From positions 1 to 64,000 of IMG/VR virus record IMGVR_UViG_3300031857_016023: a stretch of DNA of 64,000 nucleotides; one strand, written 5' to 3'. The notes beneath the pieces are model-generated. The model had not been told where the DNA came from. It ran no database searches and worked only from the letters and a program-made list of their open reading frames with translations. Positions 31,084-35,533 of the stretch are shown in pieces. The DNA comes from a virus. Numbering within the stretch: position 1 is the first letter of the stretch; each line of letters begins with the position of its first letter. Position numbers and translations under genes: made by a program.

Positions 31084-33465
31084 TTATGCGGCAATACCTT
31101 GGATGAACCGAGATACTAACACACGATTTACTGCCCGTTTCTTATTGTATTTGGCAAAGGCAGTTGCCAATTTACGAGCAGAGAATTTGCCTTCTACTTC
31201 AATACCATCATCATCGTTGGTGGTAAGTTCTTCGCCACCTGAAATGAAAAAGAAATTCTCATAACCAGGTAGTTTACAAGCAAGATACTTTTCACTCTTA
31301 AACTGTTTGACGGCCTGCTTACGCATATCATCAGCAGCTTCACGACCAATATCTTGACTTAATTGCCAGTAGTCTTTATTTCCATTGTAAAGATACCTGT
31401 TAGTTAGAATCCATTTGGTTTCACGGGTAGGTACAATAAAGAAACCAAACACACGAGCACCAGTTACTTTTTGAAACCACATCAATAGATTTTTAGGAAT
31501 ATCTTCGTTATAACTAGAAAGTTTCATTTCAAATTTGTTTTGACGGTCACGCATCATAATAACTTTTTCACCAGTCCAATAAGCTTCTTGTTTTTTAATT
31601 TTCTCCATTAAACCAGTATCACTATTCAAAACTTCTTTTTCAATCCAATAACTATTGGTACTATCAGCATCACCGTCATGGATTACAACCAAACTACAAA
31701 TGTCCAGATTGTTAACCTTCTTAAAGGTTTTCATAATCTCAGCCGTAGCAATAATCGCCTGTGACATTGGTGTATTGTTGAGTTGCTCAGATTCTGGTCT
31801 AGGCGAACGCCGATAGTTTATTTCTTTGTATGAATCCATAAGCAAACACATATTCTTTAATGCAGCCGTAAACTCAGAACCAGACATTTTAGAATTTAGA
31901 TATTCACGCAAATGAACATTACCAAACTCCATTTCACCAAAGTTTTTAGTGAACGAATTATATTTACTATCTCCTTTATAGTTAGCGTATTCATGCTTAA
32001 AGATATTATATTCTTGATTTCCGTATTCACAATTAAAACCTAAATCCATAGCACGAACGGCACCTGATTCAGTAAAACCATAAACAACAAACGGAATGTT
32101 CACTTTGCGGCAGAACATCGACAATACCAAAATCTGCTCAATAGAACCAGACATATTCTTTGACATTGAACCTGAACGGTCAAGTAACAATACCAGGCCA
32201 TGCGATTTGCCTTTGGGTGTCATCATTACTTTACGGAAAATGTTGTCATCAAATTTGTACGATGATAATTTGTTAATGTCAATATCGCCTGTGTCAGACA
32301 GTTTAGATTTACTAAATGCTTTGGCAGCCTTACGCATTTCAAATTCTTTCGCAAGTAGACCAATGTACCGCTCATTACGGCGTTTGAATTCATTGACCAA
32401 CTCCATTGCTTTTTCTGGTTTAAGGTATTTCTCTTTAACGAACTTGGCATATTCTTTTGTCATCAACTCCTGAACTCGCTTCGCAGGTGTAATGATATTG
32501 TTCATGTTTGGCTTAGGAATATCCACATACAAAAACTCTTTGCACTTATCATCAAGCAATTGCACTTCGTTACGGCGATAGTTTTGATCCGTTTCACAAG
32601 TAGGGTCAAATTGGTCAACATCACCAGGATGAGATTCTTTATCGTGGTTAATGCTATTACCATTCTCTAATTCATCGTCACCTGGTTCTTCACCACCAGC
32701 TTGACTGCGTTTAGATTTAGTATCGCCTTCTTCAAACTCATCACTTGGAGAATTGCCTTCACCTTTACCATCTTCATCATCTTCACCGTCATCACCATAG
32801 TCAGAATCATAATCAGACATATCATAGCCGTCATCATCGCTTTCATCGGCCATATTCGCCATCATGTCATCATAATACTGTAATGCCATTTCATGTTGTT
32901 CTTCTTTTGAATACTCATACACCTTGTTAGTGATACGAACAACATCGTCCCAGGTTTCTGCAGCCTGAACTTCTTTCACCAATAATTCTTCTTTAGCAGA
33001 GAATTGAATCCATGTGGAAGACCATTGTGATTTGCTGAATAGATTCAGTCGGTCAATAAATGGCATTTCGTTTACCTCACGACCTTTAATACCAAAGAAA
33101 TCACGGATATTTAATTCTTGGTATGCTTGACGGAAAGAAGAATTTAAACCAGGATATTTGCGTTTAACTTTCTTTTCGATACGAGCATCTTCAATGACAT
33201 TCAAAAAGTTTTTGTAATTTTTGTTCTTGTCATTGTCCATCACCGCATCGTGCCAACCTTCGGCAGGAGTATAGAGAGCATGACCAACTTCATGGCCAAC
33301 CAACAGGTCATAGATAATACCTGTCATGTTTTGCCAGATAGGCAAATAGAGAATACGATTCTTGGTATCAAATTTAGCGGTGTTGATTTTCTGGTGCTGA
33401 ACCGAAAGATTCTCGGTTGCCAGTAATTTCGCTAATTGGGATTTTTGTTCGGCAGTAAAAGACAT
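31084..33465 (-). CDS. CobT-like protein: HExxH metallopeptidase-like domain, acidic linker and vWA domain
   Basis: HEVGHAL, NVIEDARIE, D/E-rich linker, LLDRSGSM (MIDAS), NTP, HDG; start moved to MSFTAEQK (GAGGG SD). Confidence 0.82.
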   Translation of the reverse strand: MSFTAEQKSQLAKLLATENLSVQHQKINTAKFDTKNRILYLPIWQNMTGIIYDLLVGHEVGHALYTPAEGWHDAVMDNDKNKNYKNFLNVIEDARIEKKVKRKYPGLNSSFRQAYQELNIRDFFGIKGREVNEMPFIDRLNLFSKSQWSSTWIQFSAKEELLVKEVQAAETWDDVVRITNKVYEYSKEEQHEMALQYYDDMMANMADESDDDGYDMSDYDSDYGDDGEDDEDGKGEGNSPSDEFEEGDTKSKRSQAGGEEPGDDELENGNSINHDKESHPGDVDQFDPTCETDQNYRRNEVQLLDDKCKEFLYVDIPKPNMNNIITPAKRVQELMTKEYAKFVKEKYLKPEKAMELVNEFKRRNERYIGLLAKEFEMRKAAKAFSKSKLSDTGDIDINKLSSYKFDDNIFRKVMMTPKGKSHGLVLLLDRSGSMSKNMSGSIEQILVLSMFCRKVNIPFVVYGFTESGAVRAMDLGFNCEYGNQEYNIFKHEYANYKGDSKYNSFTKNFGEMEFGNVHLREYLNSKMSGSEFTAALKNMCLLMDSYKEINYRRSPRPESEQLNNTPMSQAIIATAEIMKTFKKVNNLDICSLVVIHDGDADSTNSYWIEKEVLNSDTGLMEKIKKQEAYWTGEKVIMMRDRQNKFEMKLSSYNEDIPKNLLMWFQKVTGARVFGFFIVPTRETKWILTNRYLYNGNKDYWQLSQDIGREAADDMRKQAVKQFKSEKYLACKLPGYENFFFISGGEELTTNDDDGIEVEGKFSARKLATAFAKYNKKRAVNRVLVSRFIQGIAA

Positions 33466-33492
33466 AATACCCTCATTCATTATTATTTAACC

Positions 33493-33521
33493 ATTATAAC
33501 ATTACCCGGCCTGCCTGTCAA
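33493..33521 (-). promoter_or_regulatory. Consensus sigma70-type early promoter
   Basis: TTGACA-17 nt-TATAAT, perfect consensus. Confidence 0.88.
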
Positions 33522-33595
33522 CCACTTTGTTGTATAAAAACAACACTATATGGCGTAGACCTGGTCTATGTTAGTGAACACTTACTTACATTGAA

Positions 33596-33659
33596 TGGAG
33601 CGGTTAACAGGAGTTAAACCTGTCTGCCTACGGGGGTAGGCTGTTCTCGGACTCACCGC
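33596..33659 (-). ncRNA. tRNA-Gly-like RNA lacking a D-arm (64 nt, encoded CCA)
   Basis: Acceptor GCGGTGA/TAACCGC + T + CCA; T-arm ACAGG-TTTAACT-CCTGT; central hairpin GCCTAC-CCCC-GTAGGC; TATAAT at 33670-33675. Confidence 0.7.
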
Positions 33660-33681
33660 ATGAAAGGATATTATACGCTAC

Positions 33682-34959
33682 TTATCGACCCACTTGAGGC
33701 AGATATTTAGCCTTTGTTTCTTCCCATGATAACACGGTAAGGTCATCATAGAAAAGAGTGTCAGAAGAAACTCTGCCTTTTTTAACCAACTGCTTGATTC
33801 TTGGTTTGGCGTGCTTCTCTTTCCATATATTACTTAGGCTTTCTACATCAGTATTAAACAACTTTTTCATATCTTTGCCATCATTATCGCCTCGGAGAAA
33901 TTCACAAGTCTTATCATACAGAGGCGCAAAGTAAATGCCTCTTGCATGTTCAGAACGAATCAAATCTTTTGGCACACTTAACTTAGCATAAGCAAAAGAC
34001 AATGAACGATTTTTGTGGTCACGCTTATGAGGTTGACCACTTGGTTTCTTTGCAACATACCATTCAAAATACTTCCGTGTATGATTCACTTTCAACCACT
34101 CACGAATCATATACCGAGTTTCTTGTAATGGTTCAAACGATACTGAACCTGAGGTAAAGCCCATTGGCTGCCAGAAATCCAGATTATCATATTGAGATAA
34201 ACCACCAGCTTTTGTTTTACCATAAAGTGATGTTGTTGTGATACTTACCAACTTATCACCATATAGTTTCTCCCATAATTGTTGTATGGGTGTGGCTAAA
34301 CAAAGCAAAGCCAACAATTTACCACCAACATAATTAAAACCAAGAGGTTGTAATGGCACAATCGTAGAACCAATTGCAGTATGGTTAATCATACCACCTT
34401 GTGTTTTCTTTTCTCTACTCCAACCAATAAAGTTATCTCTTGGTGTTAAATCTAAAAAGTCAGATGAAATACAAATAACACCAAGGTATTTCTGTGTTGG
34501 TTTATCTTTAACAATAAAGTTTAGATTACGACCAATGTTAGCATTGTTTTTCATTGTAGAAGAAAAGGTACGAATACAATTCCACAATTCAGGTAAGTCA
34601 TCCTGTTTATTCGCATACACCAGTTCAGGTTCTAATGCCAAGTATGCTTCGGGATCATTTGGTATCCAAAAGTTATTTTTTATTTCCTGAATAGCACGGC
34701 GTTGGCCTTCATCTTCCAATAATCGTTCTTCACCCCATAAAGTTTGTGATACGATAGATGGATATTTCTCCTGCACCTCACACCACTTCTGAAACAAGGT
34801 ATACTCTTTCACATCCATTTGTGAAACATAACCTAGTTCTTTAATGGTCTGCTCACGCAGTTCATCTTCGGTGAAAGACAATGGTTGAATTGGCGTTTGT
34901 TCTTGCCATTTTTGCCATTGGGTTTCTACATCATCTTTTGGATCAAAGCTGTATGCCAT
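33682..34959 (-). CDS. DUF4338/DruA-like protein (probable GNAT-like fold), paralogue 2
   Basis: IGRNL, YLGVICISS, PRDNFIGW, IVPLQPLGFNYVGGKLLA, TTTSLYG, SQYD, WQPMGFTSG. Confidence 0.72.
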   Translation of the reverse strand: MAYSFDPKDDVETQWQKWQEQTPIQPLSFTEDELREQTIKELGYVSQMDVKEYTLFQKWCEVQEKYPSIVSQTLWGEERLLEDEGQRRAIQEIKNNFWIPNDPEAYLALEPELVYANKQDDLPELWNCIRTFSSTMKNNANIGRNLNFIVKDKPTQKYLGVICISSDFLDLTPRDNFIGWSREKKTQGGMINHTAIGSTIVPLQPLGFNYVGGKLLALLCLATPIQQLWEKLYGDKLVSITTTSLYGKTKAGGLSQYDNLDFWQPMGFTSGSVSFEPLQETRYMIREWLKVNHTRKYFEWYVAKKPSGQPHKRDHKNRSLSFAYAKLSVPKDLIRSEHARGIYFAPLYDKTCEFLRGDNDGKDMKKLFNTDVESLSNIWKEKHAKPRIKQLVKKGRVSSDTLFYDDLTVLSWEETKAKYLPQVGR

Positions 34960-35533
34960 TGCCTGTCTTTTTATGGTTGCGAATTGCTTTTTTAACTATC
35001 TTATTTTGTTTTCGTTTAGCGACTTGTAGTGCGACTGGTCCTACATTGTCAGTAAATTTTTTACCATTCATGTGTTCTAATTCATGGACAAAACACCGAG
35101 CAGTTATTCCCTTTAATGTTGTTTGTTGTAATTCCCCATTTTCATCGGTATATTCAACAACAACTGATTCTGGTCTTGCTATTTTAAGATATAAACCAGG
35201 GTAGGAGAGGCAACCTTCATCTATTTTAACAACATCATCCAAAACCGATATTACTTTTGGGTTAATACAAGCCATTTGGAAATCATCAGTACCAATTACA
35301 AACACCCTTTCATATACACCGCATTGATTAGCAGATAATCCAATACCACCATAAAGTTTTCTGGTTAATTGTAACCGCTTAATCAAGTTTGACATATGTG
35401 GATTTGGTAGAGAACCTTTATACTCAGGCATTTCAGCAGCTAACATCGGATGATCACCTTCATATAAAGGTAATCTGTTTATAGGTTCTTCTACTATGCC
35501 TAAACCAGTATCAATTTTTAAAATATCATTCAT
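34943..35533 (-). CDS. def: Peptide deformylase
   Basis: GIGLSANQ, EGCLS and HELEH motifs are intact. Confidence 0.94.
   Translation of the reverse strand: MNDILKIDTGLGIVEEPINRLPLYEGDHPMLAAEMPEYKGSLPNPHMSNLIKRLQLTRKLYGGIGLSANQCGVYERVFVIGTDDFQMACINPKVISVLDDVVKIDEGCLSYPGLYLKIARPESVVVEYTDENGELQQTTLKGITARCFVHELEHMNGKKFTDNVGPVALQVAKRKQNKIVKKAIRNHKKTGNGIQL

What the first reader, a model, noticed from the sequence alone, without database searches (positions are those of the whole stretch)
33596..34959. D-armless tRNA-Gly mimic directly behind a GNAT/Mom-like DUF4338 gene: possible dedicated glycyl-donor RNA plus transferase system
Seen in sequence: minus-strand 33659-33596 reads GCGGTGA GTCCGAGAACA GCCTAC-CCCC-GTAGGC AG ACAGG-TTTAACT-CCTGT TAACCGC T CCA. 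It has a 7-bp acceptor stem (one G.A mismatch), an encoded CCA and a 5-bp/7-nt T-arm, but no D-arm and no canonical 7-nt anticodon loop. A TATAAT lies 10 nt upstream and the DUF4338-like gene stops 22 nt upstream. Established: bacterial GlyRS identity elements are G1-C72, C2-G71, G3-C70, U73 and anticodon CC; the acceptor ones are all present and the central loop is a run of C. A49-U65 and A51-U63 T-stem pairs weaken EF-Tu binding, as in the non-proteinogenic staphylococcal tRNA-Gly used by Fem transferases. Phage Mu Mom, a GNAT-fold enzyme, has been reported to use Gly-tRNA to hypermodify adenine. Inference: this RNA is charged by host GlyRS, kept out of translation, and donates glycine to the neighbouring enzyme for DNA (or other) modification. 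Alternatively it is a decoy for anticodon nucleases.
Basis: partly seen in the sequence, partly recalled or inferred. Interest (0 to 1): 0.88.

Follow-up and report, generated by a model that had tools for sequence, protein, structure and literature searches.

The report
Phage mini glycine-tRNA beside DruA enzyme
A T4-like aquatic phage encodes a conserved, shrunken copy of glycine tRNA that keeps the marks for being loaded with glycine but cannot read codons, placed just behind an acyltransferase-fold (DruA-family) gene, so it may be a private glycine carrier for a chemical modification that is still untested.

Summary
The 64-nt RNA at 33659..33596 (minus strand) is there as described. It folds far better than shuffles. 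Three of its four helices show compensatory changes in 26 distinct relatives; the fourth, a 3-bp mini D stem, varies only between sequence types.

It is a miniaturised tRNA-Gly, not strictly D-armless. ARAGORN and Rfam do not call it.

Relatives carry at least three sequence types at this spot. They share only G1-C72, C2-G71, G3-C70, U73, an encoded CCA and CC in the middle loop, which is the bacterial glycine identity set. Loop size (4-7 nt) and position 33 vary, so decoding is unlikely.

The neighbouring gene is a DruA/DUF4338 family member with a GNAT fold. Its best structural match is phage Mu Mom, which uses Gly-tRNA-Gly to modify DNA. There is no sequence-profile link to Mom.

- it is adjacent in every window-clade locus with enough flank;
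- related mini-tRNAs often lie kilobases from the DruA gene;
- three complete phages with a DruA-like gene have only canonical tRNA-Gly.

The glycyl-donor idea is plausible but unproven. This scan noted the same system before on other DNA (26 notes, at least 21 genomes).

The parts
33596..33659 (-). 64-nt mini tRNA-Gly-like RNA (type A), made of: acceptor 5' strand 33659-33653; mini D arm 33652-33643; middle ('anticodon') stem-loop 33641-33626 with CCCC loop 33635-33632; T-like arm 33623-33607 with UUUAACU loop 33618-33612; acceptor 3' strand 33606-33600; U73 at 33599; CCA at 33598-33596.
   Evidence: Sequence. Fold z-score -3.54. Covariation. Covariance model R1 scores it 86.6 bits, E 3e-20, and it is the only copy in the 123.8-kb record.
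33670..33675 (-). -10-like TATAAT hexamer, 10 nt before G1 of the RNA. No -35 is recognisable in this phage.
   Evidence: Relatives carry a full TTGACA-17-TAtAAT ending 8-12 nt before G1 in 40 of 73 type-A contexts and 5 of 7 type-B contexts.
33682..34959 (-). DruA/DUF4338-family gene, 425 aa, standing alone without Druantia partner genes in view.
   Evidence: Pfam PF14236 E 2e-20. PADLOC DruA E 1e-17. phrog_19197. 904 relatives in the representative library. AlphaFold2 model with pLDDT 94.7.
33886..34650 (-). GNAT-fold core of the DruA-like protein (about residues 104-358), with a three-helix insertion at residues 279-326.
   Evidence: VIA-align whole model: Mom 8bv8_B Z 9.6, rmsd 4.1, 174 residues aligned. 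Domain model: Mom Z 11.7, rmsd 3.9, 169 aligned, against 10.7 for the next GNATs. BFVD: Mom is the second non-DruA hit, E 3.7e-3.
34943..35533 (-). Peptide deformylase gene, overlapping the DruA-like start by 17 nt. Context only.
   Evidence: Pfam Pep_deformylase E 4e-32. The same gene order is seen in the relatives.
33493..33521 (-). Perfect sigma-70-type promoter (TTGACA-17-TATAAT) of the next gene. It marks the end of the RNA's transcription unit.
   Evidence: 12 of 12 matches.
31084..33480 (-). 798-aa gene downstream (phrog_459, annotated 'peptidase'; no Pfam family). It is the constant downstream neighbour of the RNA in this clade.

Best explanation
The RNA is a phage-encoded, miniaturised descendant of tRNA-Gly. 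It is 63-70 nt long in its various types.

It has its own early-type promoter and an encoded CCA. It keeps the acceptor-end and CC-loop determinants that bacterial GlyRS reads. It has lost what a decoder needs: a 7-nt anticodon loop with U33, the G18-G19 D loop and the T-Psi-C loop.

Proposed mechanism:
1. It is made early in infection.
2. It is trimmed to G1...CCA.
3. Host GlyRS loads it with glycine.
4. It stays outside translation.
5. It hands its glycine to an aminoacyl-tRNA-dependent GNAT transferase. The best candidate is the adjacent DruA-family enzyme, acting like Mom, which uses Gly-tRNA-Gly on adenine N6 of DNA.

Shown here: the RNA is real, its structure is conserved, it derives from tRNA-Gly, the glycine identity elements are selectively retained, and the enzyme has a GNAT fold.

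Inferred: glycylation, exclusion from EF-Tu and the ribosome, the partner enzyme and the acceptor substrate.
For: RNA structure:
- Compensatory changes occur in 7 pairs spread over the acceptor, middle and T helices.

Presence in relatives:
- Every DruA-like locus of the window's clade that has enough downstream flank carries such an RNA.
- At least three sequence types sit at this spot. They share only GCGG.../...CCGC-U-CCA and a C-rich middle loop.
- Loci L005, L006 and L012 have 98% identical DruA and flanks nearly identical to the window's but a type-B core. So selection acts on the shared ends, not on the body.
- CC lies in the middle loop in 62 of 64 variants. The 2 misses are misfolds.

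Link to glycine:
- Variants with 7-nt loops read as the Gly anticodons UCC, CCC or ACC.
- Published bacterial Gly identity is U73, G1-C72, C2-G71, C35 and C36 (PMC9976931).

Not needed for translation:
- Complete relatives G001 and G002 also carry canonical tRNA-Gly genes in separate tRNA arrays.

The enzyme:
- GNAT fold with Mom as top solved match (Z 9.6 for the whole model, 11.7 for the domain). Mom is also the second non-DruA hit in BFVD.
- Mom transfers Gly from Gly-tRNA-Gly to DNA and appears to be directed by the tRNA 3' end plus the amino acid (PMC13219725).

Linkage:
- In the type-A scan, 78 of 80 listed loci have a DruA-like gene upstream on the same strand. The other 2 have under 30 nt of flank.
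- Among 16 large records whose type-C match is not adjacent to a DruA-like gene, 13 encode a DruA-family protein elsewhere in the record.

T stem:
- The window's T stem has A49-U65 and A51-U63. The same pairs occur in the S. aureus non-proteogenic tRNA-Gly species, which bind EF-Tu weakly (PMC7826273).
Against: - No biochemical datum exists for charging or transfer.
- Adjacency in the window's clade is conserved synteny of related phages, so it is not independent evidence.
- In the type-C scan, 61 of 115 loci have at least 600 nt of upstream flank and no DruA-like gene directly upstream. Seven more have one only 7.0-9.3 kb away.
- DruA-like genes exist without any mini-tRNA nearby: 0 of 44 clade-2 loci within 2.5 kb and 0 of 8 clade-3 loci within 3 kb.
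- Three complete clade-2 genomes have only canonical 74-nt tRNA-Gly.
- The two cultured Pelagibacter phages have no tRNA-like RNA in the intergenic region behind the DruA-like gene. Their 74-nt aberrant tRNA-Gly(ACC) lies 3.9 kb (HTVC008M) and 6.5 kb (Mosig) downstream.
- DruA and Mom families show no profile similarity: hhalign probability 1% and 0.18%, and 0 of 56 members hit Pfam Mom.
- Mom's lead over generic GNATs is only about 1 Z unit.
- The base rate of DruA-like genes in this phage group was not measured, so genome-level co-occurrence is uncontrolled.
Confidence: 0.4

Rival explanations
1. Decoy or sponge for host weapons that act on tRNA-Gly or Gly-tRNA-Gly. Examples are TacT-type GNAT toxins, which acetylate Gly-tRNA-Gly, or tRNA nucleases. 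The mini-tRNA would present the recognised acceptor end (U73 plus G71) or the CC loop, soak up the attacker and spare the translational tRNA-Gly pool.
For: - TacT recognition is specified by U73 and G71, both invariant here (PMC9976931 passage).
- Only the acceptor end and the CC loop are conserved, while the body is swapped freely.
- The RNA has early-type promoters.
- It occurs away from DruA-like genes in many relatives.
Against: - A stoichiometric decoy for an enzyme is inefficient.
- The 4-nt loop of the window type is a poor mimic for anticodon nucleases.
- No host toxin of this kind is known for these uncultured hosts.
- It does not explain the persistent co-occurrence with DruA-family genes (13 of 16 records).
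Confidence: 0.2
2. Regulator or titrator of glycine or tRNA-sensing machinery. As a non-decoding GlyRS substrate or competitor, it would change the charged-to-uncharged tRNA-Gly balance, GlyRS availability or a tRNA-sensing pathway during infection.
For: - Retained GlyRS determinants and loss of ribosomal features.
- Independent promoter.
- Variable genomic position within the early region.
Against: No sensor target was identified in any call. The idea makes no specific prediction that the data here support. Co-occurrence with DruA stays unexplained.
Confidence: 0.1
3. RNA-processing signal. The tRNA-like fold would recruit RNase P or 3' trimming enzymes to cut and stabilise the flanking early mRNAs, and the small RNA itself would have no role.
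For: - It sits between two early genes.
- In the window it has only a -10 element, so it may be co-transcribed with the DruA-like gene.
- One metatranscriptome contig ends, with adapter, exactly at 33659. This is a weak hint only.
Against: - Most relatives give it its own full promoter ending 8-12 nt before G1.
- A processing signal does not need glycine identity elements, U73 or a CC loop.
- Tandem pairs of two different types occur.
Confidence: 0.07
4. A decaying or still-decoding tRNA-Gly gene: either a pseudogene or an odd translational tRNA.
For: - It clearly descends from tRNA-Gly.
- HTVC008M's 74-nt relative is still called tRNA-Gly(ACC) by ARAGORN.
Against: - Compensatory changes and invariant ends across at least 64 variants show purifying selection.
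- A 4-nt loop cannot decode.
- Canonical tRNA-Gly genes coexist in complete relatives.
- ARAGORN and Rfam reject the RNA.
Confidence: 0.04

Closest known systems
Phage Mu Mom with host Gly-tRNA-Gly (Pfam PF25680; PDB 8bv8; PMC13219725)
   Same: - A phage GNAT-fold enzyme combined with a glycine-specific tRNA species.
- Mom is the top solved structural match of the DruA-like protein (Z 9.6 and 11.7).
- According to the paper, Mom appears to read the tRNA 3' end plus glycine. That end is the part conserved in the mini-tRNA.
   Different: - No sequence-profile similarity to Mom.
- The protein is 425 aa with extra N- and C-terminal regions, against 241 aa for Mom.
- Mom uses host tRNA, whereas here the phage encodes its own non-decoding carrier.
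- The gene lies in a block with sigma-70-type (early-type) promoters, whereas Mom is made late (from recall).
- The acceptor substrate is unknown.
Non-proteogenic tRNA-Gly (NP1-NP3) of Staphylococcus aureus, donors for FmhB/FemA/FemB (PMC7826273)
   Same: - Glycine-accepting tRNAs kept out of translation.
- Weak EF-Tu T-stem pairs. A49-U65 and A51-U63 are also present in the window RNA.
- Both lack the G18-G19 D-loop signature. For the staphylococcal RNAs this comes from recall.
   Different: - The staphylococcal RNAs are full-size cloverleaves with a UCC anticodon, and they are cellular.
- The phage RNA is 63-70 nt with a 3-bp D stem and often a 4-nt loop.
- FemA is only a mid-rank structural match (Z 7.9 at rank 29 and 9.8 at rank 18).
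DruA of type I Druantia (Pfam PF14236, PADLOC DruA)
   Same: Same protein family by sequence: E 2e-20 in Pfam and E 1e-17 in PADLOC. All 56 of 56 aligned relatives hit DruA.
   Different: - The neighbours called in this phage are a peptide deformylase, gp46/47-like genes, a 798-aa 'peptidase' and a CobS-like ATPase, not Druantia partner genes.
- The function of DruA itself is not described in the papers found.
TacT-type GNAT toxins acting on Gly-tRNA-Gly
   Same: A GNAT fold acting on glycyl-tRNA-Gly, with specificity set by U73 and G71 (PMC9976931). Both nucleotides are invariant in the mini-tRNA.
   Different: TacT is a small acetyl-CoA-dependent toxin of a toxin-antitoxin pair. No such pair and no TacT similarity was seen or tested here.

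Membership tests
Canonical tRNA (Rfam RF00005 / ARAGORN) | Recognised by tRNA detectors | tested here: not met
   ARAGORN finds 0 genes in the window and 0 in the 15 relative loci scanned. No Rfam hit. RF00005 gives 0 hits in the whole record.
Canonical tRNA (Rfam RF00005 / ARAGORN) | 7-nt anticodon loop with U33 | tested here: not met
   The window loop is CCCC, 4 nt. Relatives have 4-7 nt, with U, G or C at the position-33 equivalent.
Canonical tRNA (Rfam RF00005 / ARAGORN) | 4-bp D stem with a G18-G19 loop, and a T-Psi-C loop (U54 U55 C56) | tested here: not met
   The D stem has 3 bp and a 3-4-nt loop without GG. The T loop is UUUAACU.
Bacterial tRNA-Gly identity set (PMC9976931) | G1-C72, C2-G71 and G3-C70 | tested here: met
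   Invariant in 26 of 26 aligned type-A sequences. Also present in every unfiltered intergenic region printed. One tandem second copy begins GCGA... and still keeps G1, C2 and G3.
Bacterial tRNA-Gly identity set (PMC9976931) | Discriminator U73 followed by CCA | tested here: met
   TCCA is invariant, and sequence diverges right after it.
Bacterial tRNA-Gly identity set (PMC9976931) | C35 and C36 | tested here: inconclusive
   CC lies in the middle loop in 62 of 64 variants. In 7-nt loops it sits at positions 35-36. In the 4-nt loop the numbering is undefined.
Bacterial tRNA-Gly identity set (PMC9976931) | Glycylation by GlyRS | not testable with these tools
   Needs an aminoacylation assay.
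Mom family (PF25680) | Match to the family profile | tested here: not met
   0 of 56 DruA-like relatives hit PF25680 at E<=1. hhalign gives probability 1% against Mu Mom and 0.18% against a 31-sequence Mom alignment.
Mom family (PF25680) | GNAT fold with an extra helical insertion | tested here: inconclusive
   Mom is the top structural hit. The model has a three-helix insertion at residues 279-326. Residue-level equivalence to Mom's 175-209 insertion was not obtained.
Mom family (PF25680) | Catalytic R111 and S124 equivalents | not tested
   No residue-level superposition was available. The DruA family has its own near-invariant R130, R174, S244 and R340.
DruA (PF14236) | Match above the curated cut-off | tested here: met
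   73.6 bits against a cut-off of 27. PADLOC DruA E 1e-17.
Type I Druantia system | DruA together with DruB-DruE | tested here: not met
   The ORFs within about 4 kb of the gene are a peptide deformylase, gp46/47-like genes, a 798-aa 'peptidase' and a CobS-like ATPase. The 798-aa protein has no PADLOC hit. The rest of the record was not scanned for DruB-E.
S. aureus-type non-proteogenic tRNA-Gly | Weak EF-Tu T-stem pairs (A49-U65, U50-A64, A51-U63) | tested here: inconclusive
   The window has A-U, C-G and A-U. Pair 51-63 is A-U or U-A in 26 of 26 sequences. EF-Tu binding was not measured.

The most novel reading that the evidence does not exclude
DruA-family GNATs, including DruA of type I Druantia, would be aminoacyl-tRNA-dependent glycyl transferases. 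A large group of aquatic T4-like phages would have evolved an orthogonal, ribosome-blind glycine carrier RNA to feed their own copy. That would be a virus-encoded, minimal (63-nt) aminoacyl carrier dedicated to non-ribosomal chemistry, such as DNA hypermodification.
Probability: 0.25. Interest if true: 0.9.

Novelty: new variant of a known kind. Interest (0 to 1): 0.78.

Why it matters
- If it is charged, this would be the smallest natural GlyRS substrate with a dedicated gene.
- It would also be the first virus-encoded non-decoding aminoacyl carrier.
- It would give a concrete, testable hypothesis for the unknown chemistry of DruA/DUF4338 proteins, which occur in a widespread anti-phage system and in many phages and giant viruses.
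- The natural series is an evolutionary experiment on which parts of a tRNA matter outside the ribosome. It runs from canonical phage tRNA-Gly, through the aberrant 74-nt Pelagibacter-phage form and the 67-70-nt type C, to the 63-nt type A with a tetraloop.
- Annotation pipelines miss these genes. In phage Mosig a 31-aa ORF is annotated over one.

Tried and rejected
Detectors
- Rfam at gathering and at E<=10 gave only chance snoRNA, miRNA and sRNA rows.
- ARAGORN found nothing in the window or in most relatives.

Covariance model R1
- It is specific to type A. It scores types B and C weakly (18.8-25.9 bits, or not at all) and finds nothing in the Pelagibacter phage loci or clade 2.
- The missing hits were therefore settled by reading the intergenic regions and by pattern searches.

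Sequence link to Mom
- Rejected by phmmer and by a profile search of the PDB, by hhalign twice and by Pfam Mom.
- Foldseek against the PDB on the whole model gave only weak GNAT rows (E >= 6.7e-3).
- The protein atlas gave one sub-threshold lead, PF22559 GNAT-phage-like at score 0.83.

Wider linkage census
- The search for related loci with P0028 and P0036 found no viral loci.
- Alignment A2 could not seed a genome-contig scan, so bacterial DruA loci were not examined.
- The earlier scan note of a mini-tRNA-Gly beside DruA in a 100-kb soil phage was not verified.

Expression
- Only Logan contigs with small shares were available.
- Contigs from two freshwater RNA libraries cover the RNA, and one ends with adapter at 33659.
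- Contigs cannot show transcript ends or strand, and DNA carry-over is possible. I draw no conclusion from this.

Other points
- The idea that the RNA is tied to the downstream 798-aa gene rather than to DruA was dropped. Small ORFs are also inserted between the RNA and that gene (L061-L066).
- The inserts between DruA and the RNA are antisense ORFs that look like homing endonucleases.
- Literature searches found no description of a phage mini-tRNA-Gly or of DruA chemistry. Supplements were not opened.
Full report
**Where the window lies.** The window is part of a 123.8-kb IMG/VR virus record, estimated 69% complete. It is a T4-like myovirus. Its nearest cultured relatives are Pelagibacter phages Mosig and HTVC008M of the Kyanoviridae. 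Around the finding the minus strand carries, in order:
- gp47- and gp46-like genes;
- a peptide deformylase gene;
- a 425-aa DruA/DUF4338 gene (33682..34959);
- the RNA;
- a 798-aa 'peptidase' gene (phrog_459);
- a CobS-like AAA gene.

**Checking the observation.** The quoted 64 nt are at 33659..33596 on the minus strand. TATAAT lies 10 nt upstream and the DruA-like stop codon 22 nt upstream. The RNA folds into a three-way junction at -22.9 kcal/mol. The z-score is -3.54 and 0 of 200 shuffles fold as well. ARAGORN and Rfam do not recognise it.

**Conservation and covariation.** A protein-anchored scan of IMG/VR found 347 relatives of the DruA-like protein. Of these, 80 loci were kept, at 74-100% identity. 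nhmmer found the RNA full-length in 56 of 81 loci, always downstream of the gene on the same strand.

The 26 distinct sequences show compensatory changes in 7 pairs across the acceptor, middle and T helices:
- 90.6% of cells are paired, against 78.4% in shuffles;
- there are 47 double-change cells, against 13.6;
- 0 of 500 shuffles reach the observed values;
- slid controls give 37-53% paired.

Sequence diverges immediately before G1 and immediately after CCA. The conserved unit is therefore exactly the tRNA-like molecule.

- Only five acceptor pairs are conserved Watson-Crick pairs. Pair 6 is G.A in 23 of 26 sequences and pair 7 is unpaired in 9 of 26.
- The '11-nt unpaired segment' forms a 3-bp mini D stem. 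Its third pair changes compensatorily between sequence types: GUC/GAC, GUA/UAC, GUG/CAC and GUU/AAC.

**One family, several types.** Loci that nhmmer or model R1 missed were read directly. Every locus with enough downstream flank has a tRNA-like RNA at this spot. It comes in at least three sequence types:

| Type | Where seen | Mini D | T loop | Middle loop |
|---|---|---|---|---|
| A | the window and most relatives | GUCCGAGAC | UUUAACU | CCCC or CCCA; rarely CUUCCCA, CACCCA, UCCCC |
| B | L005, L006, L012, L044, L041, L061-L066 | GUAAUAGUAC or GUGAUAGCAC | AGCAxAG | (G)UCCCC(C), AUACCCU, ACACCCU |
| C | L021, L026, L027, L030, L056, L057, L074, L075; also the second tandem copy in L071, L073 and L077-L080 | GUUxUAGAAC | UGCGAAU or UGCAAAU | UGUCCAA or UGACCAA |

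In all, 64 distinct variants were collected.

What all types share is G1-C72, C2-G71, G3-C70, U73, an encoded CCA and CC in the middle loop. CC is in the loop in 62 of 64 variants, and the two misses are misfolds. The ends were demanded by that script's regex. Where the loop has 7 nt, it reads as a glycine anticodon (UCC, CCC or ACC).

The identity review (PMC9976931, passages read) gives U73, G1-C72, C2-G71, C35 and C36 as the bacterial glycine set. So the features that survive are those read by GlyRS. The features the ribosome needs are lost or free to vary: loop size, U33, G18-G19 and T-Psi-C.

Loci L005, L006 and L012 have a 98% identical DruA-like protein and flanks nearly identical to the window's, yet a type-B core. 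The body of the RNA is therefore exchangeable by recombination.

**Descent from tRNA-Gly.** Complete relatives that carry the type-A RNA also carry large tRNA arrays. G001 is 214 kb and G002 is 157 kb. Their arrays include canonical 74-nt tRNA-Gly (UCC, and GCC in G001) that begin GCGGGAUU and end AUCCCGCUCCA. The mini-RNA is therefore an extra, non-canonical glycine species outside the array.

The two Pelagibacter phages have no such RNA behind the DruA-like gene. They do carry a 74-nt aberrant tRNA-Gly(ACC) that is not annotated as an RNA gene. Its D and T loops are non-canonical. It lies 3.9 kb downstream of the gene in HTVC008M and 6.5 kb downstream in Mosig, in the same gene block. ARAGORN calls only the HTVC008M copy. 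In Mosig a 31-aa ORF is annotated over it.

**Transcription.** In the window only a -10 hexamer is present. A full TTGACA-17-TAtAAT promoter ends 8-12 nt before G1 in 40 of 73 distinct type-A contexts and in 5 of 7 type-B contexts. This suggests an independent, almost leaderless early transcript.

**The neighbouring enzyme.**
- The protein is a DruA family member: Pfam E 2e-20, PADLOC E 1e-17, and 56 of 56 aligned relatives hit DruA.
- A paper from the Aravind group calls DUF4338 a GNAT domain (PMC10853773, passage read).
- An AlphaFold2 model (pLDDT 94.7) shows a GNAT core at about residues 104-358.
- VIA-align ranks phage Mu Mom (8bv8_B) first: Z 9.6, rmsd 4.1, 174 residues aligned. Generic GNATs follow at Z 9.0 and below.
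- With a domain-only model (pLDDT 94.2), Mom scores Z 11.7 (rmsd 3.9, 169 aligned) against 10.7 for the next rows. FemA scores Z 9.8 at rank 18.
- In BFVD, after four true DruA-family hits, an uncharacterised Halorubrum virus protein is next (E 2.6e-3). A Salmonella-phage Mom follows (E 3.7e-3).
- There is no profile-level similarity between the DruA and Mom families.

The protein is thus 'Mom-like' in fold only and is not a Mom family member. Mom has been shown to transfer glycine from Gly-tRNA-Gly to adenine N6 in dsDNA. It accepts all three isoacceptors but not Gly-tRNA-Ala (PMC13219725; abstract and section 10 read). An earlier preprint had proposed acetyl-CoA and iron instead (10.1101/861617, passages read).

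**How tight is the linkage?**
In the 80 loci listed, 78 have the DruA-like gene upstream on the same strand, 31-773 nt from the pattern. The 2 without have under 30 nt of flank.
- The longer gaps are caused by antisense HNH/NUMOD3 ORFs that look like homing endonucleases.
- This is synteny within one clade, so it is not independent evidence.
- A type-C pattern scan hit at least 120 stretches, of which 115 new loci were analysed. It gave a different picture: 40 loci have a DruA-like gene 152 nt or less upstream, 7 have one 7.0-9.3 kb upstream, 61 have at least 600 nt of upstream flank and none directly upstream, and 7 lack flank.
- A few of the 61 are full-size 74-76-nt tRNA-Gly or chance matches.
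- I picked 16 of the non-adjacent class, mostly the larger records. Of these, 13 encode one or two DruA-family proteins elsewhere. The three without are a chance match, a provirus with a full-size tRNA-Gly, and a 9%-complete fragment.
- Conversely, DruA-like genes occur without a mini-tRNA. There are 0 of 44 clade-2 loci within 2.5 kb and 0 of 8 clade-3 loci within 3 kb.
- Three complete clade-2 genomes have only canonical tRNA-Gly.

In this sample the mini-tRNA is nearly always in a genome that has a DruA-family gene, but the reverse does not hold. Adjacency is a feature of the window's clade only. The base rate of DruA-like genes in this phage group was not measured.

**Reading.** The safest statement is that this is a conserved, phage-encoded, non-decoding miniature of tRNA-Gly under selection for GlyRS recognition. 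I hold this with high confidence. That it is glycylated and kept off the ribosome is a well-founded inference. The closest precedent is the non-proteogenic tRNA-Gly of S. aureus, whose T-stem pairs A49-U65 and A51-U63 recur here (PMC7826273). That it feeds the DruA-like GNAT is plausible but unproven, and I put the whole chain at about 0.4. Rivals are a decoy for tRNA-Gly-directed toxins (TacT reads U73 and G71), a GlyRS or tRNA-pool regulator, and a processing signal.

**Novelty.** My searches of the held literature found no description of such an RNA or of DruA chemistry. Supplements were closed. Earlier notes of this scan describe the same pairing in at least 21 other genomes, and I reached the same reading independently. 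One note reports a non-T4 soil phage with the pairing, which I could not verify.

Noticed in passing
L373 1054-1120, minus strand (G004:C1:61653-61719): A clade-2 phage has an RNA gene of about 67 nt with its own TTGACA-17-TATAAT promoter. It starts GGGGCU and ends CCACCUCC-A-CCA, and its T loop is UGCAAAU. It looks like a miniature tRNA-Ala or tmRNA tRNA-like domain (possible G3.U70, A73) with no tag-coding part. RF00005 scored it 20.5 bits, below the cut-off.
   Followed up: partly
KC465899 91140-91213 (+), which is L374 341-414; MT647606 7779-7852 (-), which is L375 980-1053: Both cultured Pelagibacter phages carry a 74-nt aberrant tRNA-Gly(ACC) with non-canonical D and T loops. No RNA feature is listed over it in either record. 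In Mosig a 31-aa hypothetical ORF (Mosig_000011) is annotated over it. ARAGORN calls only the HTVC008M copy.
   Followed up: partly
L008 4259-4705 (-) and L014 4258-4923 (-): Antisense ORFs are inserted between the DruA-like gene and the RNA, overlapping the DruA stop. One is a 221-aa ORF that looks like an HNH plus NUMOD3 homing endonuclease. The other is a 148-aa version with no visible nuclease motif. The domain names are read by eye from the translations, and no family search was run. Such elements could drive the exchange of RNA types by co-conversion.
   Followed up: partly
L005 4301-4367, also L006 and L012, compared with window 33596-33659: Phages with 98% identical DruA and flanks nearly identical to the window's carry a type-B core in place of type A. 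The recombination borders lie inside the acceptor strands.
   Followed up: partly
L248 1488-1562 and 6633-6706 (G001 tRNA array): ARAGORN calls tRNAs with CUA and UUA anticodons (amber and ochre suppressor-like) in the 28-gene tRNA array of a complete 214-kb relative. This hints at stop-codon reassignment or suppression.
   Followed up: no
window about 33525-33545 (-): A hairpin of the form UGUUG-U-rich loop-CAACA lies between the RNA and the next early promoter. It recurs in the relatives' intergenic regions. The scan does not score it as an intrinsic terminator.
   Followed up: no
window 34943-34959 (-): The peptide deformylase stop overlaps the DruA-like start by 17 nt. The deformylase-then-DruA-like order is kept in the window's clade, in clade 2 and in Mosig. 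An acceptor other than DNA, such as protein N-termini, is therefore worth considering.
   Followed up: no
G006, G008, G009, G012, G014, G017: Several relatives encode two DruA-family paralogues, one about 420-430 aa and one about 370 aa, placed 17-22 kb apart.
   Followed up: no
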